Positions 37,076 to 56,857 are shown, numbered from the stretch's first letter. The stretch is 64,000 bases of DNA from Squalus acanthias (GCA_030390025.1 CM059431.1:99016001-99080000); one strand, 5' to 3'. The notes: a model not told the origin generated them from the sequence alone. Made by a program: numbers and translations.

Positions 37076-37345
37076 TTAATGTTTAATATTGATGGCAGCG
37101 TATTCCGTGCCTTCTTCGTGAGGGAGAATGACTGATGGTTTACTGCTTAACATGGATTCGTTCAATGAAGCATAAATAATTGTATCGTGCGGCGTTGTGT
37201 CGGAGGGGCGAACATTACGCTTGTGGTTTGCAGGGGAATTGCAATTGTTAACAGTTAAAGAATTCGGAATGGTGGAGCCAAGGCCTTCGGAACATTCATT
37301 CGCATTTTCATAGATTGTAGGTTTTCCATTAATTTCAGTCATAGC
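37076..37345 (-). CDS. BTLA: BTLA-like gene, terminal exon with YxN, ITIM and ITSM
   Basis: ttctttcatgttaag|GCT ATG ACT...; TIYEN (YEN 37304-37312), IIYASL (37163-37180), TEYAAI (37091-37108), stop TAA 37076-37078. Same motif order as mammalian BTLA (IYDN, IVYASLN, TEYASI). Confidence 0.85.
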   Translation of the reverse strand, partial: AMTEINGKPTIYENANECSEGLGSTIPNSLTVNNCNSPANHKRNVRPSDTTPHDTIIYASLNESMLSSKPSVILPHEEGTEYAAINIKH

Positions 37346-37494
37346 CTTAACATGAAAGAAAGAAGCAATGAGTTTTAATGAAGATATATAAATATCTCTC
37401 TCTCTATATATATATATAGCACAATGAAACAGTGCAGAATGAGAATTGTTAACTTGAATAATAAATGCTTGGTTTCAAACAGGCGGAATAAGAA

Positions 37495-38067
37495 GAAATA
37501 AAAACAGAAAATGCTGGGAATACTCAGTAGGTCGGGCAGCATCTGTGGAGAGAGAAATAGAGTTAACGTTTCATCTTGATGACCTTTTGTCAGAACTGGA
37601 AAAAGTTAGCGATGTAACAAGTGCAAGAGCAGGGAAAGAGGGGAGGGGAGGAAAGAACAAAAGGGAAGGTCTGTGATAGGGTGGAAGGCAGGAGAGGTTA
37701 AATGACAAAAGGGAGGATGGTGCGAGGCAAAAGGAGATGGTAATGGGACAAGTGAAGAAACAAAAGATGGGTCTAGAGGAGGTGTAAATGGGAATGGCAG
37801 AATCATCAACAGCTGCCATGTGAAAAAATAGGGGCAGAGGTTATGATCTGAAATTGTTGAACTCGATGTTAAGTCCAGAAGGCTGTAAAGTGCCTAATCG
37901 AAAGATGAGGTGCTGTTCCTCGAGCTTATGTAAGCTGACGAAAGGTCATCGACCTGAAACGTTGACTCTGTTTCTCTCTCCACAGATGCTGCCTGACCTG
38001 CTGCGTGTTTCCAGCATCTTTTGTTTTTATTTCAGAAGTCCAGCATCCGCAGTATTTTGCTTTTGTG
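37495..38067 (-). mobile_element. Penelope-like 3' fragment (minus, 37495-37927) joined to an inverted pLTR (plus, 37935-38067)
   Basis: Closely similar to 11115-11575; the right end is the reverse complement of the left end. Confidence 0.85.
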
Positions 38068-38314
38068 TTGGAGTACTGTAATAAGAAAGGTTTGCTGTTG
38101 GTACTAAAAGCACGTTATATATATCTCAGACGCCCCAAATGTTTCAGAAAGTGTGCGGAATGGTTAAGAAAATCGTCTTCTTCTCCAGGTGGGAGTGGCA
38201 GCTAGGGACAGGAGGAGGCCATTCAGCCCCTCCAACCTGTTCCGCCATTCAATTAGATCATGGCTGATCTGTACCTCAACTCCATTTACCCGCCTTGCTT
38301 CCGTAACTTGTGTC

Positions 38315-40062
38315 AGCCGTGGCTCAATGGGCAGCACCCTCGCCGCTGAGTCAGAAGGTTGTGGGTTCAAGTCCCACTCCAGAGACTTGAGCACAAAATC
38401 TAGGCTGACACTCCAGTGCAGTACTGAGGGAGAGCCGCACTGTCGGAGGTGCAGTACTGAGGGAGCACCGCACTGTTGGACGGGCGGTACTGAGGGAGCG
38501 CCGCACTGTCGGAGGGGCGGTACTGAGGGAGCGCCGCACTGTCGGAGGGGCAGTACTGAGGGAGCGCCGCACTGTCGGAGGGGCAGTACTGAGGGAGTGC
38601 CGCACTGTCGGAGGGGCAGTACTGAGGGAGCGCCGCACTGTCGGAGGGGCAGTGCTGAGGGAGCGCCGCACTGTCGGAGGGGCAGTACTGAGGGAGCGCT
38701 GCACTGTCGGAGGGGCAGTACTGAGGGAGTGCTGCACTGTCGGAGGAGCAGTACTGAGGGAGTGCTGCACTGTCGGAGGGGCAGTACTGAGCGAGCGCTG
38801 CACTGTCAGAGGGGCAGTACTGAGGGAGTGTTACACTGTCGGAGGAGCAGTACTGAGGGAGTGCTGCACTGTCGGAGGGGCAGTACTGAGGGAGCGCTGC
38901 GCTGTTGGAGGGGCAGTACTGAGGGAGCGCTGCACTGTCGGAGGGGCAGTACTGAGGGAGCGCCGCACTGTCGGAGGGGCAGTACTGAGGGAGTGCCGCA
39001 CTGTCGGAGGGGCAGTACTGAGGGAGCGCCGCACTGTCGGAGGGGCAGTGCTGAGGGAGCGCCGCACTGTCGGAGGGGCAGTACTGAGGGAGCGCTGCAC
39101 TGTCGGAGGGGCAGTACTGAGGGAGCGCCGCACTATCAGAGGGGCAGTACTGAGGGAGCGCTGCGCTGTCGGAGGGGCAGTACTGAGCGAGCGCTGCACT
39201 GTCGGAGGGGCAGTACTGAGGGAGTGTTACACTGTCGGAGGAGCAGTACTGAGGGAGTGCTGCACTGTCGGAGGGGCAGTACTGAGGGAGCGCTGCGCTG
39301 TTGGAGGGGCAGTACTGAGGGAGCGCTGCACTATCAGAGGGGCAGTACTGAGGGAGCGCTGCGCTGTCGGAGGGGCAGTACTGAGCGAGCGCTGCACTGT
39401 CGGTGGGGCAGTACTGAGGGAGTGTTACACTGTCGGAGGAGCAGTACTGAGGGAGCGCTGCGCTGTCGGAGGGGCAGTACTGAGGGAGTGTTACACTGTC
39501 GGAGGGTCAGTACTGAGGGAGCGCTGCACTGTCGGAGGGGCAGTACTGAGGAAGCGCTGCGCTGTTGGAGGGGCAGTACTGAGGGAGCGCTGCACTGTCG
39601 GAGGGGCAGTACTGAGGGAGCGCCGCACTGTCGGAGGGGCAGTACTGAGGGAGTGTTACACTGTCAGAGGGGCAGTACTGAGGGAGCACTGCACTGTCAG
39701 AGAGGCAGTACTGAGGGAGTGCTGCACTGTCGGAGGTGCCGTCTTTCGGGTGAGACGTTAAATCGAGGCCCCGTCTGCCCTCTGAGATGGACGTAAAAAA
39801 TACCATGGCACTAATTCAAAGAGGAGCAGGGGAGTTATCCCTGGTATCCTGGCAAATATTTATCCCTCAATCAACATCACTAAATGGATTATCTGATCAT
39901 TATCATGTTGCTGTATGTGGGAGCTTGCTGTGCGCAAATTATCTGCTGCGTTTCCCACATTCCAACAGTAACTCCACTTCAGAAAAGTGCTTCATTTGCT
40001 GTAAAGCACTTTGGGACGTCCTGAGGCTGTGAAAGCCGCTATGTTAATACAAGTCTTTCTTT
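38315..40062 (+). mobile_element. Full-length Deu-domain SINE with internal 33-bp minisatellite (~40 copies, ~38418-39736)
   Basis: A box tggctcaatgg, B box ggttcaagtcc, array of gcagtactgagggagcgccgcactgtcggaggg, then gtgccgtctttcgggtgagacgttaaa and a (tctt)n tail. Confidence 0.92.
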
Positions 40063-40400
40063 CTATCCCTCTTAATACCCTTACTCAACAATCTCAATTT
40101 TGACATTTTCAATTGACACCCCCCAGCCTCAACAGCTTTTTGGGGGAGAGAGTTCCAGATTTCCACTAGCCTTTGTGTGAAGATGGTAAAGAATATTCAA
40201 TGGAAAGAAGATTGTCCAACCCATCAGGGACACTGTATCCCAGGAGTGGATACACGTCGCACCAGGTACCTCTGCTAAACGTTCCAACAAGGCAATAACC
40301 CATGAAGTTTCTGCCGAAGGAAATCCAGTAAAACTAGAAAGAAACATCACCAGACATTTCATTCAACACGGCTGTGTGCCTATTGCAGAAGAGATTCTTA

Positions 40401-41192
40401 GGGCTGGATTTTCAATGACCCGTGGAGTCGGGTTTGGAGGCGTGTGAGGGGTTAAAGTTGCAGATTCGGGGGTCCCGACCCCATCCCGACTCCATTCCGC
40501 CTCCACGCAATTTTGACAAAATCGGTCGCGGGGTTCCCGACTCCGTCCCGCCTCCAAGAGGCGGGAGAGGCCATTAAAGCCCTTAACAAGCCCTAAATTG
40601 GCTCTGTAATGCCATTTTGAAATGTTTTAGCTAGTTTAACCCTTTTCCGACGTGAAATACGCCTGATGTGAAACACGCCAGTGAAACCTGGCGGGAGCAC
40701 AAGTGGATAGCTGACTATCAGCTGCAGGTCGACTATTACAACGGAGATGTGATGAAGGTAGTAGTAGTAGTATTAGGTGTGAAAGTCGCCTCTGATGCTG
40801 CTGCATTGAATGTCTTCAGAGACTGCCTGGGAGAACTTGGTTGCAAAAAAAATTCTCTCACGCTCTCTCTCGCTCTCTCTCGCTCTCTCTCGCTCTCACG
40901 CTCTCTCTCTCTCTCTCTCTCTCTGATGCTGCTCATTTTGCATCCAGGTCCTCTCACAGCAAAGGCCAGGCAATCTCTGAGGCCAGGCAGTCTCTGACCT
41001 GCAATGATGACATCATCAGAGGCGACTTTCAGACTGAAACCACTAATTGGTTCATGGGTTCCCACATGCTGGAACTCAATTGCCCAATTAAGTGAAAATT
41101 GCATCAATCTCCCACATCCAATTGCAGTCGGGTGGATAACACGAAATGCGGATGACACGACCCCAACCCGCCCCAGTATCAAAATCCAGCCC
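40401..41192. mobile_element. Non-autonomous PIF/Harbinger DNA transposon (792 bp)
   Basis: Perfect 12-bp TIRs GGGCTGGATTTT/AAAATCCAGCCC; TTA duplicated at 40398-40400 and 41193-41195; internal (CT)n at ~40853-40924. Confidence 0.88.
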
Positions 41193-41309
41193 TTAATGTC
41201 ACCAAAAGAAATGCAGCCACTGGCACACTGTGGGATTGTTGACCTCCAGTATCCACCCTCAACCCAACAACCATCCTTCGGTTTTGGTGTGCAGATATTT
41301 GCAAAGAAA

Positions 41310-41485
41310 GAAAAGGAAAGAAAACGCATTTCTCCAGCGCCTTTCACCGCCTCAGGACATCCCAAAGCGCTTCACAGCCAATGAAGTATTTTTAAATTGG
41401 AGTCACTGTTGTAATGTAGGAAACGCGGCCGCCAATTTGTGCACAGCAAGCTCCCACTAACAGGAATGACCAGATAGTCTGTTTT
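41310..41485 (-). mobile_element. SINE 3' tail fragment
   Basis: Family match; a separate head fragment lies at ~41640-41712. Confidence 0.75.
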
Positions 41486-41724
41486 CGTGATGTACGTTGC
41501 CTATAAGCAACATTAGCCAGACTGCTGGCTATTTCCTTGGCCATTTGACAGCCTCATGCTTGGTTTTGGTTTGAATCTGCTTACTTTTCCAGGTGGGAGG
41601 CAGGGGGTTCGGGAGGGCGAAGCTGAAAGCACAGAAGTGGAGTCCCTGGAGTGGGATGTGACTCCCCGACAACTTTCTGACTCAGAGGTGAGAGTGTTAA
41701 CAAATGAGCCGAGGCAGACATGAG

Positions 41725-44700
41725 CCACCCACTCTAATCCCACTCTACCCCTCACTCCCCGCACCCTTTAATATCCCACCCACTCTAATCCCACTCTCCT
41801 CCTCACTCCCCGCACCCTTTAATATCCCACCCAGTCCAATCCCACACTCCTGCTCACTCCCCATACCCTTTAATATCCCACCCAGTCTAATCCCACTCTC
41901 CCGCTCACTCCCTGTACACTTTAATATCCCACCCAGTCTAATCCCACTCTCCTGCTCACTCCCCATACACTTTAATATCCCACCCAGTCTAATCCCACTC
42001 TCCCGCTCACTCCCCGTACACTTTAATATCCCACCCAGTCTAATCCCACTCTCCTGCTCACTCCCCATACACTTTAATATCCCACCCACTCTAATCCCAC
42101 TCTCCCGCTCACTCCCCGTACCCTTTAATATCCCACCCAGTCTAATCCCACTCTACCCCACACTCCCCGTACCCTTTAATATCCCACCCAGTCTAATCCC
42201 ACTCTACCCCACACTCCCCGTACCCTTTAATATCCCACCCAGTCTAATCCCACTCTCCCCCTCACTCCCCGTACCCTTTAATATCCCACACAGTCTAATC
42301 CCACTCTCTCCCTCACTCCCCACACCCTTTAATATCCCACCCAGTCTAATCCCACTCTCCCGCTCACTCCCCGTATACTTTAATATCCCACCCAGTCTAA
42401 TCCCACTCTCCCCCTCACTCCCCGTATACTTTAATATCCCACCCACTCTAATCCCACTCTACCCCTCACTCCCTGCACCCTTTAATATCCCACCCAGTCT
42501 AATCCCACTCTACCCCACACTCCCCGTACCCTTTAATATCCCACCCAGTCTAATGCCACTCTACCCCTCACTCCCCGTACCCTTTAATATCCCACCCAGT
42601 CTAATCCCACTCTCCCCCTCACTCCCCGTATACTTTAATATCCCACCCACTCTAATCCCACTCTACCCCTCACTCCCCGCACCCTTTAATATCCCACCCA
42701 GTCTAATCCCACTCTCCCCACCACTCCCCGTACCCTTTAATATCCCACCCAGTCTAATCTCACTCTCCCCCTCACTCCCCGTACCCTTTAATATCCCACC
42801 CAGTCTAATCCCACCCTCCCCCCCACTCCCCGTACTCTTTAATATCCCACCCAGTCTAATCCCACTCTCCCCCTCACTCCCCATACCCTTTAATATCACA
42901 ACCAGTCTATTCCCACTCTCCCCCTCACTCCCCGTACACTTTAATATCAGACCCAGTCTAATCCCACTCTCCAGCTCACTCCCCATACCCATTAATATCC
43001 CACCCAGTCTAGTCCCACTCTCCCCCTCACTCCCTGTACACTTTAATATCTCACCCAGTCTAATCGCACGCTCCCCCTCACTCCGCGCACCCTTTAATAT
43101 CCCACCCAGTCTAATCCCACTCTCCCCTCACTCCCCGTACCCTTTAATAACCCACCCAGTCTAATCCCACTTTCCCACTCACTCCCCGAAATTTTTAATA
43201 TCCCACCAAGTCTAATCTAGCTCTCCCGCTCACTCCCCGTACCCTTTAATATCCCACCCAGTCTAATCCCACTCTCCTGCTCACTCCCCGTACCCTTTAA
43301 TATCCCACCCAGTCTAATCTCACTCTCCCCTTCACTCCCCAAACCCTTTAATATCCCACCCAGTCTAATCCCACACTCCTGCTCACTCCCCGTACCCTTT
43401 AATATCCCACACAGTCTAATCCCACTCTCTCCCTCACTCCCCACACCCTTTAATATCCCACCCAGTCTAATCCCACTCTCCCCCTCACTCCCCGTATCCT
43501 TTAATATCCCACCCAGTCTAATCCCACTCTCCCCCTCACTCCCCGTATCCTTTAATATCCCACCCAGTCTAATCCCACTCTCCCCCTCACTCCCCGTGTC
43601 CTTTAATTTCCCACCCAGTCTAATCCCACTCTCCCCCTCTCACCGTACCCTTTAATATCCCACCAGTCTAATCCGACTCTCCCCCTCACTCCCCGTACCC
43701 TTTAATATCCCACCCACTCTAATCCCACTCTCCCCCTCACTCCCCGTACCCTTTAATATCCCACCCAGTCTAATCCCACTCTCCCCCTCACTCCCCGTAT
43801 CCTTTAATTTCCCACCCAGTCTAATCCCACTCTCCCCCTCTCACCGTACCCTTTAATATCCCACCAGTCTAATCCCACTCTCCCCCTCACTCCCCGTACC
43901 CTTTAATATCCCACCCAGTCTAATCCCACTCTCCCCTCACTCCCCGTACCCTTTAATAACCCACCCAGTCTAATCCCACTTTCCCACTCACTCCCCGAAA
44001 TTTTTAATATCCCACCAAGTCTAATCTAGCTCTCCCGCTCACTCCCCGTACCCTTTAATATCCCACCCAGTCTAATCCCACTCTCCTGCTCACTCCCCGT
44101 ACCCTTTAATATCCCACCCAGTCTAATCTCACTCTCCCCTTCACTCCCCAAACCCTTTAATATCCCACCCAGTCTAATCCCACTCTCCTGCTCACTCCCC
44201 GTACCCTTTAATATCCCACCCAGTCTAATCCCACTCTCTCCCTCACTCCCCACACCCTTTAATATCCCACCCAGTCTAATCCCACTCTCCCCCTCACTCC
44301 CCGTATCCTTTAATATCCCACCCAGTCTAATCCCACTCTCCCCCTCACTCCCCGTATCCTTTAATATCCCACCCAGTCTAATCCCACTCTCCCCCTCACT
44401 CCCCGTGTCCTTTAATTTCCCACCCAGTCTAATCCCACTCTCCCCCTCTCACCGTACCCTTTAATATCCCACCAGTCTAATCCCACTCTCCCCCTCACTC
44501 CCCGTACCCTTTAATATCCCACCCACTCTAATCCCACTCTCCCCCTCACTCCCCGTACCCTTTAATATCCCACTCAGTCTAATCCCACTCTCCCCCTCAC
44601 TCCCCGTATCCTTTAATTTCCCACCCAGTCTAATCCCACTCTCCCCCTCTCACCGTAACCTTTAATATCCCACCAGTCTAATCCCACTCTCCCCCTCACT

Positions 44701-47700
44701 CCCCGTACCCTTTAATATCCCACCCACTCTAATCCCACTCTCCCCCTCACTCCCCGTACCCTTTAATATCCCACCCACTCTAATCGCACTCTACCCCTCA
44801 CTCCCCATACACTTTAATATCCCATCCAGTCTAATCCCACTCTCCCCCTACTCCCTGTAACCTTTAATATCTCACCCAGTCTAATCCCACTCTCCTGCTC
44901 TCTCCGCGCACCCTTTAATATCCCATCCAGTCTAATCCCACTCTCCCCCTCACTCCCCGTACCCTTTACTATCTCACCCAGTTGAATCCCACTCTCCCCT
45001 CACTCCCAATACCCTTTAATATCTCACCCAGTCTAATCCCACTCTCCCCCTCACTCCCTGTACCCTTTAATATCTCACCCAGTCTAATCCCACTCTCCTG
45101 TTCACTCCGCGCACCCTTTAATATCCCATCCAGTCTAATCCCACTCTCCCCCTCACATCCTGCACCCTTTAATATCTCACCCAGTCTAATCACACCCTCC
45201 CCCTCACTCCACGCACCCTTTAATATCGCACCCAGTCTAATCCCACTCTACCCCTCACTCCCCGTACCCTTTAATATCTCACCCAGTTTAAACCCACTCT
45301 CCCCTCACTCCCCGTACCCTTTAATATCCCACCCAGTCGAATCCCACTCTCCCGCTCACTCCCCGAACTCTTTAATATCCCACCAATTCTAATCTCACTC
45401 TCCCCCTCACTCCCCGTACCCTATAATATCCCACCCAGTCTAATCCCACTCTCCCCCTCACTCCGCGTACCCTTTAATATCCCACCCAGTCTAATCCCAC
45501 TCTCCCGCTCACTCCCCGTACCCTTTAATATCCCACCCAGTCTAATCCCACTCTCCTGCTCACTCCCCACACTCTTTCATATCCCACCCAGTCTAATCCC
45601 ACTCTCTCCCTCACTCCCCACACCCTTTAATATCCCACCCAGTCTAATCCTACTCTCCTGCTCACTCCCCATACCCTTTAATATCCCACCCAGTCTAATC
45701 CCACTCTCCCCATCACTCCCCAAATTCTTTAATATCCCACCCAGTCTAATCTCACTCTCCTGCTCACTCCCCGTAACCTTTAATATCCCACCCAGTCTAA
45801 TCCCACTCTCTCCCTCACTCCCCACACCCTTTAATATCCCACCCAGTCTAATCCGACTCTATCGCTCACTCCCCGCACCCTTTAATATCCCACCCAGTCT
45901 AATTCCACTCTCCTGCTCACTCCCCGCACCCTTTAATATCCCACCCAGTCTAATCCCACTCTACCCCTCACTCCCCGTACCCTTTAATATCGCACCCATT
46001 CTAATCCCACTCTCCCCCTCACTCCCCGTACCCTTTAATATCCCACCCAGTCTAATCCCACTCTCCCCCTCACTCCCCATACCCTTTAATATCCCACCCA
46101 GTCTAATCCCACTCTCCCTCTCGCTCTCTCTATCCTTTAATAACCCACCCAGTCTAATCCAACTCTCCCGCTCACTCCCCGTACCCTTTCATATCCCACC
46201 CAGTCTAATCCCACTCTCTCCCTCACTCCCCACACCCTTTAATATCCCACCCAGTCTAATCCTACTCTCCTGCTCACTCCCCATACCCTTTAATATCCCA
46301 CCCAGTCTAATCCCACTCTCCCCTTCACTCCCCAAATTCTTTAATATCCCACCCAGTCTAATCTCACTCTCCTGCTCACTCCCCATACCCTTTAATATCC
46401 CACCCAGTCTAATCCCACTCTCCCCCTCACTCCCCGTACCCTTTAATATCCCACCCACTCTAATCCCACTCTACCCCTCACTCCCCATACACTTTAATAT
46501 CCCACCCAGTCTAATCCCACTCTCCAGTTCACTCCCCATACCCATTAATATCCCACCCAGTCTAATCCCACTCTCCCCCTCACTCCCTGTACCCTTTAAT
46601 ATCTCACCCAGTCTAATCCCACTCTCCTGCTCTCTCCGCGCACCCTTTAATATCCCATCCAGTCTAATCCCACTCTCCCCCTCACTCCCCGTACCCTTTA
46701 CTATCTCACCCAGTTGAATCCCACTCTCCCCTCACTCCCAATACCCATTAATATCCCACCCAGTCTAATCCCAGTATCCCCCTCACATCCTGTACCCTTT
46801 AATATCTCACCCAGTCTAATCACACCCTCCCCCTCACTCCGCGCACCCTTTAATATCGCACCCAGTCTAATCCCACTCTACCCCTCACTCCCCGTACCCT
46901 TTAATATCTCACCCAGTTTAAACCCACTCTCCCCTCACTCCCCGTACCCTTTAATATCCCACCCAGTCGAATCCCACTCTCCCGCTCACTCCCCGAACTC
47001 TTTAATATCCCACCAATTCTAATCTCACTCTCCCCCTCACTCCTCGTACCCTTTAATATCCCACCCAGTCTAATCCCACTCTCCCCCTCACTCCGCGTAC
47101 CCTTTAATATCCCACCCAGTCTAATCCCACTCTCCCGCTCACTCCCCGTACCCTTTAATATCCCACCCAGTCTAATCCGACTCTATCGCTCACTCCCCGC
47201 ACCCTTTAATATCCCACCCAGTCTAATTCCACTCTCCTGCTCACTCCCCGCACCCTTTAATATCCCACCCAGTCTAATCCCACTCTCCTGCTCACTCCCC
47301 GCACCCTTTAATATCCCACCCAGTCTAATCCCACTCTACCCCTCACTCCCCGTACCCTTTAATATCGCACCCATTCTAATCCCACTCTCCCCCTCACTCC
47401 CCGTACCCTTTAATATCCCACCCAGTCTAATCCCACTCTCCCCCTCACTCCCCATACCCTTTAATATCCCACCCAGTCTAATCCCACTCTCCCTCTCGCT
47501 CTCCCTATCCTTTAATAACCCACCCAGTCTAATCCAACTCTCCCGCTCACTCCCCGTACCCTTTCATATCCCACCCAGTCTAATCCCACTCTCTCCCTCA
47601 CTCCCCACACCCTTTAATATCCCACCCAGTCTAATCCTACTCTCCTGCTCACTCCCCATACCCTTTAATATCCCACCCAGTCTAATCCCACTCTCCCCTT

Positions 47701-50700
47701 CACTCCCCAAATTCTTTAATATCCCACCCAGTCTAATCTCACTCTCCTGCTCACTCCCCATACCCTTTAATATCCCACCCACTCTAATCCCACTCTACCC
47801 CTCACTCCCCATGCACTTTAATATCCCACCCAGTCTAATCCCACTCTCCCCCTCACTCCCCGTACCCTTTAATATCCCACCCACTCTAATCCCACTCTAC
47901 CCCTCACTCCCCATACACTTTAATATCCCACCCAGTCTAATCCCACTCTCCAGTTCACTCCCCATACCCATTAATATCCCACCCAGTCTAATCCCACTCT
48001 CCCCCTCACTCCCTGTACCCTTTAATATCTCACCCAGTCTAATCCCACTCTCCTGCTCTCTCCGCGCACCCTTTAGTATCCCATCCAGTCTAATCCCACT
48101 CTCCCCCTCACTCCCCGTACCCTTTACTATCTCACCCAGTTGAATCCCACTCTCCCCTCACTCCCAATACCCATTAATATCCCACCCAGTCTAATCCCAG
48201 TCTCCCCCTCACTCCCTGTAACCTTTAATATCTCACCCAGTCTAATCGCACCCTCCCCCTCACTCCGCGCACCCTTTAATATCCCACCCAGTCTAATCCC
48301 ACTCTCCCGCTCACTCCCCGTACCCTTTAATATCTCACCCAGTTTAAACCCACTCTCCCCTCACTCCCCGTACCCTTTAATATCCCACCCAGTCGAATCC
48401 CACTCTCCCGCTCACTCCCCGAACCCTTTAATATCCCACCCAGTCTAATCTCACTCTCCCCTCACTCCCCGTACCCTTTAATATCCCACCCAGTCTAATC
48501 CCACTCTCCCCCTCACTCCGCGTACCCTTTAATATCCCACCCAGTCTAATCCCACTCTCCCTCTCGCTCTCCCTATCCTTTAATAACCCACCCAGTCTAA
48601 TCCCACTCTCCCGCTCACTCCCCGTACCCTTTAATATCCCACCCAGTCTAATCCCACTCTCCTGCTCACTCCCCACACCCTTTCATATCCCACCCAGTCT
48701 AATCCCACTCTCTCCCTCACTCCCCACACCCTTTAATATCCCACCCAGTCTAATCCCACTCTCCTGCTCACTCCCCGTACCCTTTAATATCCCACCCAGT
48801 CTAATCCCACTCTCCCCATCACTCCCCAAATTCTTTAATATCCCACCCAGTCTAATCTCACTCTCCTGCTCACTCCCCGTAACCTTTAATATCCCACCCA
48901 GTCTAATCCCACTCTCTCCCTCACTCCCCACACCCTTTAATATCCCACCCAGTCTAATCCGACTCTATCGCTCACTCCCCGCACCCTTTAATATCCCACC
49001 CAGTCTAATCCCACTCTATCGCTCACTCCCTGTACCCTTTAATATCCCACCCAGTCTAATCCCTCTCTCCCCCTCACTCCCCACACCCTTTAATATCCCA
49101 CCCAGTCTAATCCCACTCTACCCCTCACTCCCCGTACCCTTTAATATCGCACCCATTCTAATCCCACTCTCCCCCTCACTCCCCGTACCCTTTAATATCC
49201 CACCCAGTCTAATCCCACTCTCCCCCTCACTCCGCGTACCCTTTAATATCCCACCCAGTCTAATCCCACTCTCCCTCTCGCTCTCCCTATCCTTTAATAA
49301 CCCACCCAGTCTAATCCCACTCTCCCGCTCACTCCCCGTACCCTTTAATATCCCACCCAGTCTAATCCCACTCTCCTGCTCACTCCCCACACCCTTTCAT
49401 ATCCCACCCAGTCTAATCCCACTCTCCCGCTCACTCCCCGTACCCTTTAATATCCCACCCAGTCTAATCCCACTCTCCTGCTCACTCCCCACACCCTTTC
49501 ATATCCCACCCAGTCTAATCCCACTCTCTCCCTCACTCCCCACACCCTTTAATATCCCACCCAGTCTAATCCCACTCTCCCGCTCACTCCCCGTACCCTT
49601 TAATATCCCACCCAGTCTAATCCCACTCTCCCCATCACTCCCCAAATTCTTTAATATCCCACCCAGTCTAATCTCACTCTCCTGCTCACTCCCCGTAACC
49701 TTTAATATCCCACCCAGTCTAATCCCACTCTCTCCCTCACTCCCCACACCCTTTAATATCCCACCCAGTCTAATCCGACTCTATCGCTCACTCCCCGCAC
49801 CCTTTAATATCCCACCCAGTCTAATCCCACTCTATCGCTCACTCCCTGTACACTTTAATATCCCACCCAGTCTAATCCCACTCTACCCCTCACTCCCCGT
49901 ACCCTTTAATATCGCACCCATTCTAATCCCACTATCCCCCTCACTCCCCGTACCCTTTAATATCCCACCCAGTCTAATCCCACTCTCCCCCTCACTCCGC
50001 GTACCCTTTAATATCCCACCCAGTCTAATCCCACTCTCCCTCTCGCTCTCCCTATCCTTTAATAACCCACCCAGTCTAATCCCACTCTCCCGCTCACTCC
50101 CCGTACCCTTTAATATCCCACCCAGTCTAATCCCACTCTCCTGCTCACTCCCCACACCCTTTCATATCCCACCCAGTCTAATCCCACTCTCTCCCTCACT
50201 CCCCACACCCTTTAATATCCCACCCAGTCTAATCCTACTCTCCTGCTCACTCCCCATACCCTTTAATATCCCACCCAGTCTAATCCCACTCTTCCCATCA
50301 CTCCCCAAATTCTTTAATATCCCACCCAGTCTAATCCCACTCTCTCCCTCACTCCCCACACCCTTTAATATCCCACCCAGTCTAATCCGACTCTATCGCT
50401 CACTCCCCGCACCCTTTAATATCCCACCCAGTCTAATCCCACTCTCTCCCTCACTCCCCACACCCTTTAATATCCCACCCAGTCTAATCCGACTCTATCG
50501 CTCACTCCCTGTACACTTTAATATCCCACCCAGTCTAATCCCACTCTACCCCTCACTCCCCGTACCCTTTAATATCGCACCCATTCTAATCCCACTCTCC
50601 CCCTCACTCCCCGTGCCCTTTAATATCCCACCCAGTCTAATTCCACTCTCCTGCTCACTCCCCGCACCCTTTAATATCCCACCCAGTCTAATCCCACTCT

Positions 50701-51692
50701 CCGCCTCACTCCCCATACCCTTTAATATCCCACCCAGTCTAATCCGTCTCTATCGCTCACTCCCCGCACCCTTTAATATCCCACCCAGTCTAATTCCTCT
50801 CTCCTGCTCACTCCCCGCACCCTTTAATATCCCACCCAGTCTAATCCCACTCTATCGCTCACTCCCTGTACACTTTAATATCCCACCCAGTCTAATCCCA
50901 CTCTACCCCTCACTCCCCGTACCCTTTAATATCGCACCCATTCTAATCCCACTCTCCCCCTCACTCCCCGTACCCTTTAATATCCCACCCAGTCTAATCC
51001 CACACTCCCGCTCACTCCTTGTACCCTTTAATATCCCACCCAGTCTAATCCCACTCTCCTGCTCGATCCCCAGACCCTTTAATATCCCACCCAGTCTAAT
51101 CCCACTCTCCAGCTCACTCCCTGTACCCTTTAATATCCCACCCAGTCTAATCCCACTCTCCTGCTCGATCCACAGACCCTTTAATATCCCACCCAGTCTA
51201 ATCCCACTCTCCCGCTCACTCCCCGTACCCTTTAATATCCCACCCAGTGTAACCCCACTCTCCTGCTCGATCCACAGACCCTTTAATATCCCACCCAGTC
51301 TAATCCCACTCTCCTGCTCACTCCCCGTTCTGTTTAATATCCCACCCAGTGTAATCCCACTCTCCCCCTCACTCCCCGTACCCTTTAATATCCCACCCAG
51401 TCTAATCCCACCCTCCCCCTCACTCCCCGTACACTTTAATATCCCACCCAGTCTAATCCCACTCTCCCCCTCCCTCCCTGTACCCTTTAATATCCCACCC
51501 AGTCTAATCCCACTCTCCTGCTCGATCCGCAGACCCTTTAATATCCCTCCCAGTCTAATCCCACTCTCCCGCTCACTCCCTGTACCCTTTAATATCCCAC
51601 CCAGTCTAATCCCACTCTCCTGCTCACTCCCCGTTCTGTTTAATAGCCCACCCAGTCTAATCCCACTCTCCTGCTCGCTCTCTGTACCCTTT
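41725..51692. repeat. ~10 kb tandem array, 51-bp unit, about 195 copies
   Basis: Consensus cccacccagtctaatcccactctccccctcactccccgtaccctttaatat; explains the 17-aa periodic ORFs. Confidence 0.98.
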
Positions 51693-51935
51693 AAGATTCC
51701 AGTTTTTCAAGCAACTATTTCATTCTCTTTTAAAATAATTTCAGGTTTCTGTATCAGCCATGGTTTGTGGCCAAGATCTCCACATTCTAACCACCCTGAG
51801 TGCAAAGACATTTTTTTAAAAACGTCCCCTTCAATTCTTGTGATTATCTTCAGTTTGTGCCGTCATCTCAGTGGACACAATCTATCATTATATTCATCTT
51901 ATCAGAACCCTTCATAATCTTGAAGACCTCTAAAG
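51693..51935 (-). mobile_element. Old CR1 3' fragment that runs directly into the 51-bp array
   Basis: Minus strand EVFKIMKG near 51930 and FKRE*NSCLKNWNLKGYRERAGEWD* across the array boundary. Confidence 0.8.
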
Positions 51936-52539
51936 ACTTCATAACCTTGACTGCTCCAAAGTGGACCCGAAATTCTCAACTGGCTCTTCAGAGGCCGCTG
52001 TGTAAATCAGTCTAATTCTGCTTGTAGTTTTCGCCAAAACAACTAAGACTGTGAATAAAGGCTGAAGTAAGTATCTAAGTGGCTGCGCACTATCATAAAA
52101 CACCTGATAGCTGCACTGTCTCAGTCTCTGAACCTCTCTCAGTTCTCTGCCTCAGATCTACAGCGATGGAACTGGAAACAAATTAAAAAAAATATTATTT
52201 AAATTATTAATAGTCATGATATAATAGCAGTAACGGACGAGGTTTTGGCGTGTGAGAGCCCCTATCTGCACCTGGCTTTGTCTTAGGCTAGAATTCTTTT
52301 GTAGTTTTCTAAGGCCTGTACTGGTCTCACACTTTCTGAATCATTATTGCCTCAGTACCTGTGCAGTCGAAGGGAATATCTCACACTGAGCCATCAATGC
52401 AAGGTACATGGTGCATGTATATCATGTTCCACCTCGCATGCAAGAGTTACTTAAGATCAACTCTAATAGGATCAAACCCAATTTAAGATGATGTGCAAAA
52501 CCATTTGCTCGATAGTTCCCTTCCCATACTATTATTTTT

Positions 52540-53035
52540 TACATCGAATCTACAGCACAGAAACAGGCCATTCGGCCCAACTGGTCCGTGCCGGTGTTTC
52601 TGCTCCACACGAGCCTCCTCCCACCCCTCTTCATCTCACCCCATCAACATATCCTTCTATTCCTTTCTCCCTCATGTGTTTATCCAGCTTCCCCTTAAAT
52701 GCATCTTTGCTATTCTCCTCAACCACTCCCTGTGGTAGCAAGTTCCACATTCTCACCACTCTCTAGGTAAAGAAGTTTCTCCTGAATTCACTTTTGGATT
52801 TATTAGTGACTATCTCATATTTATGGCCCTAGTTTTGGTCTCTCCCACAAGTGGAAACATCTTCTCTATGTCTACCCTATCAAAACCTTTCAATTTTAAA
52901 GAGCTCTATCGGGTCGCCCCTCAGCCTTCTCTTTTCTAGAGAAAAGAGCCCCAGCCTGTTCAGTCTTCCCTGAGAGTTATAACCGCTCAGTTCTGTTATC
53001 ATCCTTGGAAATCTTTTTTGCACCTTCTCCAATGC
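52540..53035 (-). mobile_element. CR1 3' fragment
   Basis: Reverse complement of the 655-970 subfamily. Confidence 0.8.
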
Positions 53036-53723
53036 ATAATTTTAATGGAATAGGACAATAATTCATCTATCAAGGTACCATTGCTCTAACGTAATTATGA
53101 GGTGGCTTGCCAAGAGAGGTCATGGAGGTGAGTCAACCCCTCAGTTGTAGCCCCATCTCCAACCCACACTCCCTTGAAGTGTGTCTCCCCAGTGGAAGCA
53201 CAGGATTGTTCAATTATACGTTATTATACGAGTCCTTATACGTAAAGCTCGAATGTTTTATTTGTGAAGATCTTGAGACGAAAGAACTTTCATTGCACAA
53301 GCAGCACCAGTCAATGGGAGTTAAACTCCTCTCCCTTTCTTGGGGACTCACAGGAACGCACACCTTCACTCTCTGTTTCTCCTGGAAGGTGAGGTGTGTT
53401 GAGCTGCGCTAAAGGTGAGAGCTGAGCGGCCAGATGGAATTGGAGACATGAGGTGTGGTGAGTGTAGCGAGCTCGGGAGGAACGGGTGACTTTGGACCTC
53501 TGGTTCCCAAAGCTCTCCCCCACTGGGGGTTTTCCTCGCCTCATGTCTGGGTCTGTTGTAGACTCATTGATAGAGATTGATCGCTGTGATTGGTCAACAA
53601 CTCCATTATCGTTGTTGATCGGGCCCATGATCCACCTCCCGACAGTTCTGGCCTGTTGGGGAAGTCCTCACTGCGACCCCTTCCCCCACTCAGGCCTCCG
53701 GCTAATATAACAGATCGGATCCT

Positions 53724-53876
53724 GATGACACCATCAGGACCCGATGACATCATCAGTAGCCGACGACATCATCAGACCCTGATGACATCATCGGTATTCA
53801 ACAACATCATCAGGATCTGACGACATCATCAGGACCCGATGACATCATCGGTATCCGATGACATCATCAGGACCCG
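53724..53876. repeat. 19-bp tandem repeat, about 8 copies
   Basis: Unit gatgacatcatcaggaccc with variants. Confidence 0.85.
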
Positions 53877-54494
53877 ATCTGCATATTTAAAGGACCCCGC
53901 TTCATCCCATTTGCCTGCTCAAAAGAGCAGGTTAACATCATGACGTGATGGTGGGATGGCGGTGGTATCACAGGAGGTAAGTCGCTGCCTTTATTTTAAC
54001 TTTCCCCCCGGCCTGGTTTCCATCAGGCGAAGGGGAGGGGGAGGCGGTGGGGTAATTAAAATCGGGACCTATAAAACCCCGTGCTCCCCGTAACAATGTC
54101 CAACTAAAGTGCATTGAAGGAAGTGAGTCAGGATTGGAGCCCTTCCTTTCGGAGGGTGGGTCCAACTCTGTTTCACCTTGGAGTCAGTTTGGACCTTAGC
54201 CCCCCACCCCTGCCGATTCACACTCTGCAATTTCAGCATCGGGCGTGAAGCCGAATGGGCCTCTCGCTGGGGCTGAACCTGCAGAGCAAACGCAACCCCG
54301 AGAATATTTGGGGCGAAAACTTCGAGCTGTGATAAACGAGGCAGACGAAGCCGATGAAATTAAACACCTTGAGTGAGACTGAATAAAAAATCACTCGGTG
54401 GGAATATTAAACCCGCCCGCACAAACTGCTCCAAAAACTCAAGCTGGCTATGAGAATGGAAGATCTGTTGCGGAGTTTGGGTTTGGTGCATGTA

Positions 54495-55110
54495 CAACAA
54501 CATCAACTGCTTGCATTTATATAGCGCCTTTAATGTTGTAAAACATCCCAAGATGCTTCACAAGGAGTGTAACCAGACAACTTGTGACACCAAGCCACAT
54601 AAGGAGATATTAGGACAGCAGATCAAAAAGAGGAGAGAGAGGTAGAGAGGCGGAGAGGTTTAGGGAGGGAATTCCAGAGCTTGGGGCCGAGGCAGCTGAA
54701 GGCGCGGCCCCCAATGGTGGAGCGATTAAAATCGGGGATGTGCAAGAGTCCAGAATTGGAGGAGCGCAGAGATCTCGGGGGATTGTAGGGCTGGAGGAGG
54801 TTACAGAGATAGGGAGGGGCGAGGCCATGGAGGGATTTGAAGACAAGGATGAGAATTTTAAAATCGAGGTGTTGCCGGACCGGGAGCCAATGTAGGTCAG
54901 CGAGCACAGGGGTGATGGGTGAACGGGACTTGGTGCGAGTTAGGACACGGGGCAGCAGAGTTTTGGATGAGCTGAAGTTTATGTAGGGTGGAAGGTGGGA
55001 GGCCGGCCAGGAGTGCGTTGGAGGTAACAAAAGGCATGGATGAGGGTTTCATCAGCAGATGGACTGAGGCAGGGGCGGAGACGGGCGATGTTACGGAGGT
55101 GGAATTAGGC
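54495..55110 (-). mobile_element. L2-clade LINE 3' fragment
   Basis: PITPVLADLHWLPVRQHLDFKILILVFKSLHGLAPPYL...GGRAFS...LWNSLP; tail ggcgctatataaatgcaag+(ttg)n. Confidence 0.88.
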
Positions 55111-55224
55111 AGTCTAAGAGTAGGAAATAGCATCAAGACACCTTTAGGAGGAAAAGTCCTTGGGGGGACATTTTGACTTTAGCTGATAGCCACCAATAGA
55201 AACTAAAATAGGGAGAGGTGTTTA

Positions 55225-56410
55225 AGGGCCCTGATGAGACCACACCTGGAGTACTGTGTACAGTTTTGGTCTCCTTACCTAAGGAAGGACATACTTGCCA
55301 TAGAGGGAGTGCAATGAAGGTTCACCAGACTGATTCCTGGGATGGGGGGATTGTCCTATGAGGAGAGATTGAGTAGACTAGGCCTATATTCTCTGGAGTT
55401 TAGAAGAATGAGAGGTGATCTCATTGAAACATACAAAATTCTTACAGGACTTGACAGGGTAGATGCAGGGCGGATGTTTTCCCTGGCTGGGGAGTCTCGA
55501 ACCAGGGTCACAGTATCAGAATAAGGGGTCGGCCATTTAAGACTGAGATGAGGAGAAATTTCTTCACTCAGAGGGTGGTGAATCTTTGTGGAATTCTCTA
55601 CCCCAGAGGGCTGTGGAGATTCAATCGTTGAGTATATTCAAGGCTGAGATCGGTAGATTTTTGGATATTAAGGGAATCAAGGGATATGGAGATAGTGTAG
55701 GAAAGTGGAGTTGAGGTAGAAGATCAGCCATGATCTTATTGAATGGCGGAGCAGGCTCGAGGGGCCGAATGGCCGACTCCTGCTCCTAATTCTTATGTTC
55801 TTACGTTTTTAACGGGAGGCAGAGCTGATATCACATATTTGACATTATTATTTAAAGCCAAAATGACCCGCTTGTGATCTCTCCCTTTTTGAGGGCTTAA
55901 TTCTAAACCTTTATTAATCACTGATTCGGCCTCAGCTGGAGTATTGAACGGTCCCAGGGATGAGGGACTTCAGTTACGTGGAGAGACTGGAGAAGCTGGG
56001 GTTGTTCTCCTTAGAGCAGAGAAGGTTAAGGGGAGATTTAATAGAGGTGTTCAAAATCATGAAGGGTTTTGCTGGAATAAATAAGGAGAAACTGTGTCCA
56101 GTGGCAGGAGGGTCGGTAACCAGAGGACACAGATTGAAGGTCATTGGCAAAAGAACCAGAGGGGAGATGAGGAGAATTTATTTTATGCAGCGAGTTGTTG
56201 TGATCTGGAATGCGCTGCCTGAAAGGGCGGTGGAAGCAGATTCAATAGTAACTTTCAAAAGGGAATTGGATAAATACTTGAAAAGGAAAAATTTGCAGGG
56301 CTATGGGGAGAGAGCAGGGGGGAGTGGGACTAATTGGAGAGCTCTTTCAAAGAGCCGGCACAGGCACGATGGGCCGAATGGCCTCCTCCTGTGCTGTATC
56401 ATTCTCTGAT
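55225..56410 (+). mobile_element. Two tandem CR1 3' fragments (~55225-55803 and ~55900-56410)
   Basis: ORFs 55342-55524 and 55960-56409 are CR1 ORF2 C-termini with different tails. Confidence 0.85.
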
Positions 56411-56515
56411 TCAATGCATGGAGCACAGCAGCAGAAGGAGGAAGAAATACATTGCTTTGACTTTCAAATCTACGTTCTCTAGAATCACTGATATAATGAA
56501 AACGTCCAGACTTAC

Positions 56516-56568
56516 ATGGCACTCGTTCCTTCGACAGGTTTCACCAGGTTGTATGCTTTCTAGGGGTT
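56516..56568 (-). CDS. BTLA: BTLA-like gene, juxtamembrane cytoplasmic exon (53 nt, phase 1-0), EPLESIQPGETCRRNECH
   Basis: catttttctag|AACCCC...TGCCAT|gtaagt; 113-nt intron after the TM exon; supplies exactly the phase change needed to join the terminal exon. Confidence 0.8.
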
Positions 56569-56681
56569 CTAGAAAAATGTTGGAAAGGCCGGTTATGCAT
56601 CAATGCAAGAGGAAGCATAATTGAAAATAAGGTTTTTATTAAATGAAAATGGAGGCAATGCCGATTGCGCTGGAGTCTCAC

Positions 56682-56822: not shown

Positions 56823-56857
56823 CTGCAAAACACAAAACATACAGAGTTTATAGCACG

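What the first reader, a model, noticed from the sequence alone, without database searches (positions are those of the whole stretch)
41725..51935. 10 kb satellite grown in place from the last codons of a CR1 LINE ORF2
Seen: on minus, a decayed CR1 (51935-51693) reads FKRE*NSCLKNWNLKGYRERAGEWD*, and its last codons are the first unit of the array. Later units read KGYGE*(A/G)GEWD*. Other CR1 copies here end NLQGYGDRAGEWD* (33244-33468) or KRELDKYLKRKNLQGYGERAG (56270-56320). Inference: a 51-bp slice spanning the CR1 stop codon was amplified ~195-fold with its parent still attached, a visible birth record of a satellite. It makes up about half of the 19.2 kb last intron of the BTLA-like gene.
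Basis: partly seen in the sequence, partly recalled or inferred. Interest (0 to 1): 0.8.

Follow-up and report, generated by a model that had tools for sequence, protein, structure and literature searches.

The report
CR1-tail satellite array in BTLA intron
A 10-kb run of 51-base repeats copied from the tail end of a jumping gene sits in an immune-gene intron of a shark, but the same repeat is very abundant elsewhere in this and related genomes, so it is one array of an old satellite family, not a one-off record of a satellite's birth.

Summary
Window 41725-51701 is a 51-bp x 196 tandem array. In minus-strand sense it follows, in register, a decayed 5'-truncated CR1-like LINE 3' end at about 51990-51702. 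The unit is homologous to the LINE slice that spans the ORF2 stop. The array fills 52% of the 19,170-bp last intron of a BTLA-like gene.

The LINE/unit-1 junction is real: a single-copy contig covers it in two samples. About 60% of the units lie in multi-unit blocks duplicated locally at 97-99.7% identity, so much of the length did grow in place.

It is not a unique birth record, for three reasons:
- Contigs at least 90% like the units carry about 750-2,400 times the sequence mass this array could supply. They are tandem in two other organisms as well.
- The rest of the LINE 3' UTR is missing at the far end, where the array abuts a SINE-like repeat.
- Units near the LINE are not more LINE-like than the others.

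This is a new member of a known kind, a LINE-tail-derived satellite, of modest interest.

The parts
41725..51701 (-). Tandem array of 196 units of 51 bp, G-rich in minus sense. Consensus: AAAGGGTACGGGGAGTGAGGGGGAGAGTGGGATTAGACTGGGTGGGATATT.
   Evidence: TRF; motif scan; unit list and consensus; unit distance matrix.
51702..51990 (-). Decayed, 5'-truncated 3' end of a CR1-like LINE (end of ORF2, with several stops and frameshifts). It runs in register into unit 1.
   Evidence: Alignment A2 with six other LINE tails; BLAST HSP 51959-51869; translation.
51642..51692 (-). Unit 1 carries the LINE's last codons (KGYRERAGEWD*). It ends GGGCTATT where 175 of 182 full-length units have GGGATATT. TTAAA occurs both just before it and at its end.
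44650..50320 (-). Central part of the array (roughly units 28-168), made largely of blocks of 5-16 units that recur at 97.3-99.7% identity at lags of 4-77 units (8 of the 18 listed runs at 14-32 units). This is the part that grew recently in place. Coordinates are approximate.
41304..41719 (-). SINE-like dispersed repeat whose intact 5' head directly follows the last unit (junction ...GAGTGGGTGG CTCA TGTCTGCC...). It ends in (TTTC)n. No LINE 3' UTR remainder lies before or after it.
   Evidence: Alignments A1 and A3; BLAST copies in the window; flank test. No tRNA by ARAGORN or Rfam.
37346..56515 (-). Last intron (19,170 bp) of the BTLA-like gene. The array is in the gene's sense orientation and makes up 52% of the intron.
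56516..56572 (-). Small penultimate exon (LEPLESIQPGETCRRNECH) followed by a gtaagt donor.
   Evidence: BLOSUM scan with the corresponding peptides of P0005, P0007 and P0009. Score 78 against a next best of 24.
37079..37345 (-). Coding part of the last exon: cytoplasmic tail with TIYENA, IIYASL and TEYAAI motifs.
   Evidence: Translation. 12 of 27 candidates at E <= 1e-3, 8 of those 12 named BTLA or BTLA-like, best 79% identity.
56682..56800 (-). Transmembrane exon (...WIFYSIIVVGIVGAVLFLVMITYFCIRNFK), donor AAGG|GTGAGA. The 5' limit of the exon was not determined.

Best explanation
This is one intronic array of an old, very abundant satellite family. The family's 51-bp monomer was cut from the tail of a CR1-like LINE, from the last ORF2 codons through the stop into the first ~20 nt of the 3' UTR.

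At this locus the array is fused in register to a decayed LINE copy of the parental type.

The array has been here long enough for its two edges (units 1-27 and 169-195) to hold unique, diverged monomers. The centre was lengthened recently and locally by duplication of blocks of 5-16 monomers, through unequal exchange or replication slippage.

What is shown:
- the monomer is homologous to the LINE tail;
- the LINE/unit-1 junction is real;
- local block duplication took place;
- array-like sequence carries a large mass, and is tandem, in this and other organisms.

What is inferred:
- The founding 51-bp duplication used the TTAAA present both before GGGTAC and at the unit's end.
- My odds for how the first units came to stand here are:
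  - about 50% that they expanded from this LINE copy's own slice or a short internal repeat it carried, with a later event removing the rest of the LINE 3' UTR (for example a SINE insertion with target-site deletion);
  - about 30% that they were copied in from a pre-existing array by break repair using the LINE tail as homology;
  - the remainder other or unknown.

No function is implied. The array behaves as neutral, probably methylated DNA: the single CpG is lost by transition in 76 of 182 units. It places at least 78 canonical G-quadruplex motifs on the sense strand of the host intron.
For: - Array anatomy.
- LINE collinearity through unit 1: alignment A2. The unit aligns at the stop region in 6 of 6 LINE tails, with 0, 1, 2, 0, 33 and 0 of 500 shuffles reaching the score.
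- Junction: a contig covers 51651-51925 at depth 10.2 (X1) and 8.9 (X2). The unique flank has depth 13.1 and 9.9.
- Family abundance: array bins have mean depth 96,743, 88,902, 317,689 and 267,751 in X1, X2, X19 and X6, against a baseline of 10-13. That is 746-2,395 times what this 9,977-bp array can supply.
- Tandem arrangement elsewhere: contigs of 84-94 bp lie wholly on the array, 5 in X6 and 1 in X19, although the unique flank 51960-52463 has little or no cover in those runs.
- Spread across organisms: 10 coded organisms in 11 studies hold 0.21-0.58 of the sampled words.
- Local growth: 122 of 195 units lie in recurrent blocks of 5 or more units. Examples are units 137-152 ~ 153-168 at 99.26% and 77-86 ~ 104-113 at 99.61%. 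Mean monomer difference is 5.56 of 51 overall and 5.43 between neighbours.
- CpG decay at unit positions 9 and 10: C to T in 56 and G to A in 20 of 182 units.
- Precedents, from passages of two reviews: PMC9659126 lists the chicken HinfI/SCR1 repeat from the CR1 3' UTR plus partial ORF2, and the cetacean satellite from the L1 3' end. PMC12628747 covers satellites from LINE UTRs and expansion of short internal TE arrays.
Against: - The depth figures are sums of contig k-mer depths. The tool warns that they are not copy numbers, so the Mb estimates are order-of-magnitude only.
- Only contigs of four runs were laid, and no other locus of the family was seen directly. Whether other arrays also abut LINE tails is therefore unknown.
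- No whole genome is held for this window.
- The window's own LINE copies are only 58-64% identical to the parental fragment. They are poor proxies for the ancestral state, so the missing gradient is weak evidence.
- The in-situ version needs an extra deletion to explain the missing LINE 3' UTR. The templated version needs long ectopic copying.
- A protein-level search with an ORF spanning the junction found nothing.
Confidence: 0.7

Rival explanations
1. The satellite was born here: this LINE copy's 51-bp slice was duplicated in place, and all or most copies of the unit descend from this locus. On this reading the locus is a preserved birth record.
For: - The LINE-to-unit-1 continuity is in register.
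- TTAAA occurs at both ends of the slice.
- Unit 1 ends GGGCTATT and the last partial unit ends GGCTCA. Both carry a C where 175 of 182 units have A, so both edges may keep a parental state.
- The edges are old and the centre is young, as expected for in-place growth.
Against: - Array-like contigs exceed what this array can supply by about 750-2,400 fold. They are tandem in two other organisms whose runs barely cover the unique flank.
- The LINE 3' UTR remainder is missing at the distal end.
- Proximal units are not more LINE-like: p = 0.40, and unit 1 scores 15.2 against 16.2 for the consensus unit.
Confidence: 0.08
2. Homology-templated seeding. A break in or beside the LINE tail was repaired by invading a pre-existing array of the LINE-derived satellite elsewhere. 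Some monomers were copied (SDSA, BIR or a template switch) and the end was joined to the SINE-like repeat. Local block duplication then lengthened the array.
For: - It explains in one event a junction that is in register on the LINE side and abrupt on the other side, together with the loss of the LINE 3' UTR remainder.
- The family is abundant elsewhere.
- Adjacent monomers are as diverged as distant ones, as if already-diverged monomers had been copied in.
- The distal junction reads GTGG+CTCA, giving GTGGCTCA. That motif recurs in the consensus head of the SINE-like repeat 12 nt further on, which is compatible with microhomology joining.
- Interlocus conversion and eccDNA reintegration at microhomology have been proposed for Drosophila euchromatic satellites (PMC7403614, passages read).
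Against: - No donor array was seen.
- Homology between the unit and LINE tails in this window is only about 80-85% over 34-40 nt.
- The old, unique edge monomers (units 1-27 and 169-195) fit long residence as well as they fit import.
- The microhomology argument rests on 4-8 nt.
Confidence: 0.25
3. TE-borne array. A LINE subfamily or composite element carries the 51-bp repeats as part of its body and spreads them by transposition. On this reading the LINE fragment plus array arrived together.
For: - The LINE-fragment bins 51708-51959 have 11-1,585 times the baseline depth in all four runs, so sequences at least 90% like this 'decayed' fragment exist elsewhere.
- In the same window a 33-bp slice of the SINE-like repeat forms arrays inside three separate copies of that repeat.
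- Expansion of short internal TE arrays is a known route (PMC12628747).
Against: - No LINE tail (hairpin or octamer repeats) follows the array, and retrotransposition would need one.
- A 10-kb array behind a 300-bp 5'-truncated body is too long to have been reverse-transcribed as it now stands.
- Part of the depth over the LINE fragment may come from short conserved LINE stretches, since 8% of X1 contigs lay only partly on the stretch.
Confidence: 0.1
4. Assembly artefact: collapsed or mis-joined repeats created the array or its junction.
For: Long tandem arrays are error-prone in assemblies, and no long read was available to span this one.
Against: - The proximal junction is present in single-copy contigs of two samples.
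- The array has an irregular, non-periodic pattern of variants and block duplications, with 50-bp and 48-bp units. This is unlike a simple assembler loop.
Confidence: 0.03

Closest known systems
Chicken HinfI (SCR1) tandem repeat containing a CR1 3' UTR and partial ORF2 (Li & Leung 2006, as listed in Table 1 of review PMC9659126; passages read)
   Same: A tandem repeat whose unit includes the end of ORF2 and the 3' UTR of a CR1-family LINE.
   Different: The original paper was not read, so its unit size and structure cannot be compared. Here the unit is only 51 bp and spans just the stop-codon slice. A decayed parental LINE copy is attached in register.
Common cetacean satellite derived from the L1 3' end, and other LINE-derived satellites (PROsat, Pvc20) listed in PMC9659126
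   Same: An abundant satellite, shared across a clade, whose monomer is homologous to a LINE 3' portion.
   Different: The LINE clade differs (L1 against CR1-like), and so do the monomer length and the host lineage. No array-parent junction is described in the passages I read.
Expansion of short internal tandem repeats of TEs into satellites (Ogre 3' UTR to PisTR-A; Helitron/Helentron central repeats), in reviews PMC9659126 and PMC12628747
   Same: A TE-internal slice becomes a long array. In this same window, the 33-bp arrays inside three copies of a SINE-like repeat show this mode.
   Different: No LINE copy in this window carries two or more units of the slice: 6 of 6 aligned tails are single-copy. 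An internal starter array in the parental LINE is therefore not shown.
Spread of euchromatic satellites to new loci by microhomology, interlocus conversion or eccDNA (Rsp-like / 1.688 in the Drosophila simulans clade; PMC7403614, passages read)
   Same: It is a model for how a satellite can land next to homologous sequence at a new euchromatic site, with one homologous junction.
   Different: There the landing pads are arrays of another satellite. Here the landing pad would be the satellite's own parental TE. That was not demonstrated here.

Membership tests
TE-derived (LINE 3'-end-derived) satellite DNA | Head-to-tail array of a defined monomer | tested here: met
   TRF: period 51, 196.1 copies, 89% matches. 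181 of 195 spacings are exactly 51 bp.
TE-derived (LINE 3'-end-derived) satellite DNA | Monomer homologous to a segment of a transposable element | tested here: met
   The unit aligns to the ORF2-stop region in 6 of 6 LINE tails, and 0, 1, 2, 0, 33 and 0 of 500 shuffles reach the score. The context is collinear.
TE-derived (LINE 3'-end-derived) satellite DNA | High copy number, present beyond a single locus | tested here: inconclusive
   Summed contig depth on array bins is about 7,400-23,700 times the single-copy baseline in 4 of 4 runs, and tandem contigs occur in other organisms. This strongly suggests high copy number. However, depth sums are not copy numbers and no second locus was seen directly. 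No genome is held.
Satellite born and grown in place from the adjoining TE copy ('birth record') | Parental TE sequence continues in register on both sides of the array | tested here: not met
   The proximal side is met. On the distal side the last unit abuts a SINE-like repeat. No LINE 3' UTR remainder lies before or after it: of 16 tails tested, 15 are not above shuffles and one reaches 2 of 200.
Satellite born and grown in place from the adjoining TE copy ('birth record') | Unit confined to this locus, or all other copies derived from it | tested here: not met
   Array-like contigs carry 746-2,395 times the mass of this array, and they are tandem in organisms B and H. Whether the other copies derive from this locus was not testable.
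Satellite born and grown in place from the adjoining TE copy ('birth record') | Units next to the parent keep more parental states than distant units | tested here: not met
   Units 1-14 against the rest give Mann-Whitney p = 0.40. Spearman rho is 0.06, p = 0.41. The test is weak because the reference LINE copies are distant.
Satellite born and grown in place from the adjoining TE copy ('birth record') | Evidence of local duplication events within the array | tested here: met
   There are 18 diagonal runs of 5-16 units at 97.3-99.7% identity, and 122 of 195 units lie in such blocks.
CR1-clade LINE (for the parental fragment) | End of ORF2 collinear with other LINE copies (FKRELD...GYG...* C-terminus) | tested here: met
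   Alignment A2; translation ...FKRE*NSCLKNWNLKGYRERAGEWD*.
CR1-clade LINE (for the parental fragment) | 3' UTR ending in octamer repeats of the ATTCTRTG type and no poly-A. This defining feature is recalled, not taken from a call. | tested here: not met
   Other LINE copies of the window end in ATTCTATG-like repeats. The parental fragment has lost everything beyond the first ~20 nt of its 3' UTR, so the feature is absent here by truncation.
CR1-clade LINE (for the parental fragment) | Reverse transcriptase and endonuclease placed in the CR1 clade by phylogeny | not tested
   The only result is a generic RVT_1 hit on other LINE copies: 32308-33162, E 6e-21, and 58915-59277. 'CR1-like' therefore rests on the tail.
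BTLA (host gene) | Cytoplasmic tail homologous to annotated BTLA, with YxN, ITIM-like and ITSM-like tyrosine motifs. The motif names are recalled. | tested here: met
   Residues 44-132 of P0003 gave 12 of 27 candidates at E <= 1e-3. 8 of those 12 are named BTLA or BTLA-like by their sources. The best hit is 79% identical, E 2e-32. TIYENA, IIYASL and TEYAAI are present.
BTLA (host gene) | Extracellular Ig domain | tested here: inconclusive
   No Ig family was found among 142 ORFs of 55 aa or more from 33-64 kb at E <= 0.01. The exon may lie beyond the window's end or in a shorter ORF.

The most novel reading that the evidence does not exclude
The satellite uses copies of its own parental LINE as landing pads. 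Arrays of this CR1-tail-derived satellite are seeded at new euchromatic sites by break repair, which pairs a LINE tail with a distant array. This leaves one junction in register and one abrupt junction, as seen here. If general, the hundreds of thousands of LINE and SINE tails in a shark genome would form a dispersed set of entry points for a Mb-scale satellite, including introns of immune genes.
Probability: 0.2. Interest if true: 0.6.

Novelty: new member of a known kind. Interest (0 to 1): 0.3.

Why it matters
Satellites cut from transposable elements are well documented. It is less common to see an array still joined in register to a copy of its parental element, so this locus is a clean teaching example of the link between a LINE tail and a satellite.

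Its wider value is as a pointer:
- The read data suggest that this 51-bp unit is a major satellite of a group of sharks, tens of Mb-equivalents in some.
- My five paper searches turned up no description of a shark satellite like this one.
- A genome-wide census of its arrays and their flanks could show whether such satellites arise repeatedly at LINE tails or spread to them.

For the host gene, the array doubles the last intron of a BTLA-like checkpoint receptor. It also puts a long G-rich, G-quadruplex-prone tract on the sense strand. That could affect elongation or splicing, but nothing here shows an effect.

Tried and rejected
- Whole-genome search of the window's assembly: none is held.
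- Earlier notes of this scan, by sequence and by genome: nothing.
- Protein search with the 155-aa ORF that spans the array/LINE junction on the plus strand, meant to find other copies of the junction: 8,000 candidates were scored and none reached E <= 1e-3. This is uninformative because the query is low-complexity.
- BLAST self-comparison of the array returned only the identity hit. I replaced it with a unit-by-unit distance matrix.
- LINE 3' UTR remainder beyond the SINE-like repeat: my by-eye resemblance (AAAT...CGAAGG...ATGG) did not survive shuffling. For 15 of 16 tails, 10 or more of 200 shuffles reached the observed score; for one tail, 2 of 200 did.
- The AAACAGAAC start of units 2 and 8 as a relic of the LINE 3' UTR: the ordinary AAAGGGTAC start aligns about as well to the LINE's CAAAGAGCC. 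I dropped it as evidence. This was a by-eye comparison, not a separate test.
- The 29/65-bp array at 35052-35240 as a second expansion of the same LINE slice: it belongs to a different dispersed repeat.
- 'tRNA-derived SINE' for the distal repeat: ARAGORN finds no tRNA in the window, and Rfam finds nothing at gathering score in 36-57 kb. I call it SINE-like only.
- Pfam on 142 ORFs gave no Ig domain. The ESM Atlas look-up of the BTLA tail gave a best score of 0.87 for an unnamed cluster, below the level that counts.
- Parrot paper PMC8854603: I recalled a CR1-derived satellite there, but the passages read show none.
- Shark karyotype paper PMC11406177: it describes only an unrelated 46-bp Y-linked satellite.
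- Runs X19 and X6 give little or no cover of the unique flank 51960-52463.
They may reflect the abundant LINE at 52464-53051 and not the array.

Full report
**1. What is there**

TRF reports one array at 41725-51701 with period 51, 196.1 copies, 89% matches, no indels and score 15376. A 22-nt motif of the unit, allowing up to 3 mismatches, occurs 193 times. All hits are on the minus strand and all lie inside 41724-51668; shuffles give none. Anchoring on an 18-nt core gives 196 units. Of the 195 spacings, 181 are 51 bp, 10 are 50 bp and 4 are 48 bp.

In minus-strand sense the consensus unit is AAAGGGTACGGGGAGTGAGGGGGAGAGTGGGATTAGACTGGGTGGGATATT. That strand is 47.7% G.

**2. The proximal flank is a LINE tail, in register**

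Read on the minus strand, 52010-51640 aligns collinearly with six other LINE 3' ends of the window: 55940+, 27620+, 25273+, 33616-, 13171- and 36280+. The alignment runs from about 330 nt before the ORF2 stop straight through unit 1 (alignment A2).

The fragment is badly decayed:
- It has several stops and frame shifts, and its translation ends ...NYFKRE*NSCLKNWNLKGYRERAGEWD*.
- It is only 58-64% identical to the window's copies over 143-357 columns.
- The best single BLAST HSP is 71.6% over 95 bp, E 4e-6.

Taken alone, the consensus unit aligns to the same place in 6 of 6 LINE tails, at about 80-85% over 34-40 nt. The number of 500 shuffled units that reach the score is 0, 1, 2, 0, 33 and 0.

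The other copies end in ATTCTATG-like octamer repeats. From memory, that is the CR1-type tail. I did not place the reverse transcriptase phylogenetically, so 'CR1-like' rests on the tail.

The slice that became the unit starts at the codons K-G-Y and ends about 20 nt past the stop. TTAAA stands both directly before it (aatcTTAAAgggtac) and at its end (gctaTTAAAcag). That is a plausible microhomology for the founding duplication. This is inference.

**3. The distal flank is not the LINE**

In-place growth predicts that the rest of the LINE 3' UTR (about 85 nt, ...AGAGCCGGCACAGGCACGATGGGCCGAATGGCC...) follows the last unit. It does not.

- Unit 196 ends ...GAGTGGGTGG, followed by CTCA, and then the intact 5' head of a SINE-like dispersed repeat begins (alignment A1).
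- That repeat runs to about 41304 and ends in (TTTC)n (alignment A3).
- The flank beyond it shows no LINE remainder. Against 16 LINE/SINE tails of the window, 15 score no better than shuffles and one reaches 2 of 200.
- ARAGORN and Rfam find no tRNA there, so I call the repeat SINE-like only.

**4. Is the unit confined to this locus? No**

No genome is held for the window, so I used public runs. The stretch 50700-53200 comprises 1 kb of array, the LINE fragment, unique flank and an abundant LINE. It is held at 0.53-0.58 of sampled words by runs of one coded organism (A), and at 0.21-0.38 by nine other organisms. In total this is 24 runs from 11 studies.

I laid contigs of X1 and X2 (organism A, two samples), X19 (organism H) and X6 (organism B) at 90% likeness or better.

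(a) The junction is real.
- The unique flank 51960-52463 has depth 13.1 in X1 and 9.9 in X2.
- One 283-bp contig covers 51651-51925, that is most of unit 1 plus the LINE fragment. Its depth is 10.2 and 8.9, with 0 other letters and one 8-bp insertion.
- The LINE/unit-1 junction therefore exists as single-copy DNA in two samples.

(b) Array-like sequence is far more abundant than this array can supply.
- The twelve array bins have summed depths of 5,322-317,539 (X1), 6,786-189,483 (X2), 67,654-667,498 (X19) and 43,286-653,453 (X6).
- Converted with the single-copy baselines, this is 7.4, 9.1, 23.9 and 23.7 Mb-equivalents, or 746-2,395 times the 9,977 bp here.
- The tool warns that such sums are not copy numbers, so I use them as orders of magnitude. 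An excess of three orders cannot come from this array.

(c) The unit is tandem in other organisms.
- In X6 five contigs of 84-92 bp, and in X19 one of 94 bp, lie wholly on the array with 7-9 differences.
- They therefore cross unit junctions, so the unit is tandem in those organisms too.

(d) The LINE-fragment bins 51708-51959 have 11-1,585 times the baseline in all four runs. Relatives of this 'decayed' fragment therefore exist elsewhere. I cannot tell whether they sit next to arrays.

**5. Internal structure of the array**

Monomers differ on average at 5.56 of 51 positions. Neighbours differ by 5.43, so there is no neighbour effect.

Superimposed on this are 18 diagonal runs of 5-16 units that recur at 97.3-99.7% identity, at lags of 4-77 units (8 of the 18 runs at 14-32 units). 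Examples:
- units 137-152 ~ 153-168, 99.26%;
- units 77-86 ~ 104-113, 99.61%;
- units 36-44 ~ 52-60, 99.56%.

In all, 122 of 195 units lie in such blocks. Units 1-27 and 169-195 do not. The centre has thus been lengthened recently and locally by block duplication, between older and unique edges. That is the part of 'grown in place' that is shown.

Units near the LINE are not more LINE-like than the rest:
- units 1-14 against the others give Mann-Whitney p = 0.40;
- Spearman rho is 0.06;
- unit 1 scores 15.2 against 16.2 for the consensus unit.

This test is weak because the reference LINEs are distant. The unit's single CpG has decayed by transition in 76 of 182 full-length units, as expected for old, methylated, neutral DNA.

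**6. Host gene**

The array lies in sense orientation in a gene on the minus strand.
- The ORF at 56596-56847(-) encodes a stalk and transmembrane segment.
- A small exon at 56516-56572(-) encodes LEPLESIQPGETCRRNECH and is followed by gtaagt. It was found by scanning with the matching peptides of three annotated shark proteins, with score 78 against a next best of 24.
- The last exon begins at 37345 and encodes a tail with TIYENA, IIYASL and TEYAAI.
- That tail finds 12 of 27 candidates at E <= 1e-3. Of those 12, 8 are named BTLA or BTLA-like by their sources. The best is 79% identical, E 2e-32.
- The last intron is 37346-56515, 19,170 bp, and the array is 52% of it.
- No Ig exon was found in the window.
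- The array puts 78 non-overlapping canonical G-quadruplex motifs on the sense strand and none on the other strand. Any effect on the gene is speculation.

**7. Reading**

The best-supported account has three parts.
- The monomer was cut from a CR1-like LINE tail.
- The family is old, very abundant and shared among related species.
- This array is one member, fused in register to a LINE copy of the parental type, and was lengthened in place by block duplication.

How the first units came to stand here is open.
- An in-situ start from this copy's own slice needs a second event to remove the LINE's remaining UTR. A SINE insertion with target-site deletion would do that and would explain the intact SINE head at the junction.
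- Import from a pre-existing array, by break repair that used the LINE tail as homology, explains the one in-register junction, the one abrupt junction and the missing UTR in a single event. Such spread has been proposed for Drosophila euchromatic satellites (PMC7403614, passages read).

I put these at roughly 50% and 30%. The strict first-reader version, with this locus as the birth site of the family, gets about 8%.

**8. Comparison with what is known**

TE-to-satellite conversion is well documented. From the passages I read:
- Review PMC9659126 lists the chicken HinfI/SCR1 repeat (CR1 3' UTR plus partial ORF2), the cetacean satellite (L1 3' end) and others.
- PMC12628747 notes satellites from LINE untranslated regions and from expansion of short internal TE arrays.

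Five searches for a shark satellite of this kind found none. The one shark paper with satellite data describes an unrelated 46-bp Y-linked unit (PMC11406177, passages). Supplements were not consulted.

The finding is therefore a new member of a known kind. It is a neat locus and a useful lead to a probably major shark satellite, but it is not a unique birth record.

Noticed in passing
window 29046-29879, 38418-39736, 63645-63996: Three arrays (25, 40 and 10.7 copies) of a 33-bp unit, each lying inside a separate copy of the same SINE-like dispersed repeat. For 38418-39736 the repeat's head (38311-38387) and tail (39908-40040) flank the array. So a second TE-internal slice has expanded in this 64-kb window, at several copies.
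   Followed up: partly
window 2474-9238 (+): An uninterrupted 2,255-codon reading frame with no Pfam hit. It is rich in S, Q, L and P, starts with a leucine-zipper-like stretch (EEIVRLRKQLDELQKENDRFAELL) and contains a run of 10 His. It looks like a genuine giant coding exon. From memory it resembles the large last exon of USF3, which in human lies in the same chromosome band as BTLA. That was not tested.
   Followed up: partly
window 41715-41735 (minus sense): The distal junction reads ...GGGTGG CTCA TGTCTGCC.... The unit's GTGG plus CTCA gives GTGGCTCA, the motif that the SINE-like repeat's consensus carries 12 nt further on. The copy itself has TCGGCTCA there. This may be a microhomology or templated joint.
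   Followed up: no
window 51863 and 51957: Contigs of both samples of the best-holding organism carry the same 8-bp (after 51863) and 5-bp (after 51957) insertions, plus 6-7 shared substitutions in about 570-600 bp of unique flank. The window's source therefore differs by about 1% from both samples at this locus.
   Followed up: no
window 52464-53051 (minus): The 3' end of another LINE subfamily (...AFKGKLDKHMREKGIEGYVDGVR*) with summed contig depths in the millions in all four runs. It is among the most abundant repeats of these genomes. The window holds 16 LINE/SINE tails with the GATGGGCCGAATGGCC motif at up to 2 mismatches.
   Followed up: no
window 22320-23018 and 35052-35240: Two further tandem arrays. 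One has a 32-bp unit x 22 copies at 94% matches. The other has a 29/65-bp unit x 3-5 copies inside yet another dispersed repeat. Their origins were not examined beyond reading 35052-35240.
   Followed up: partly
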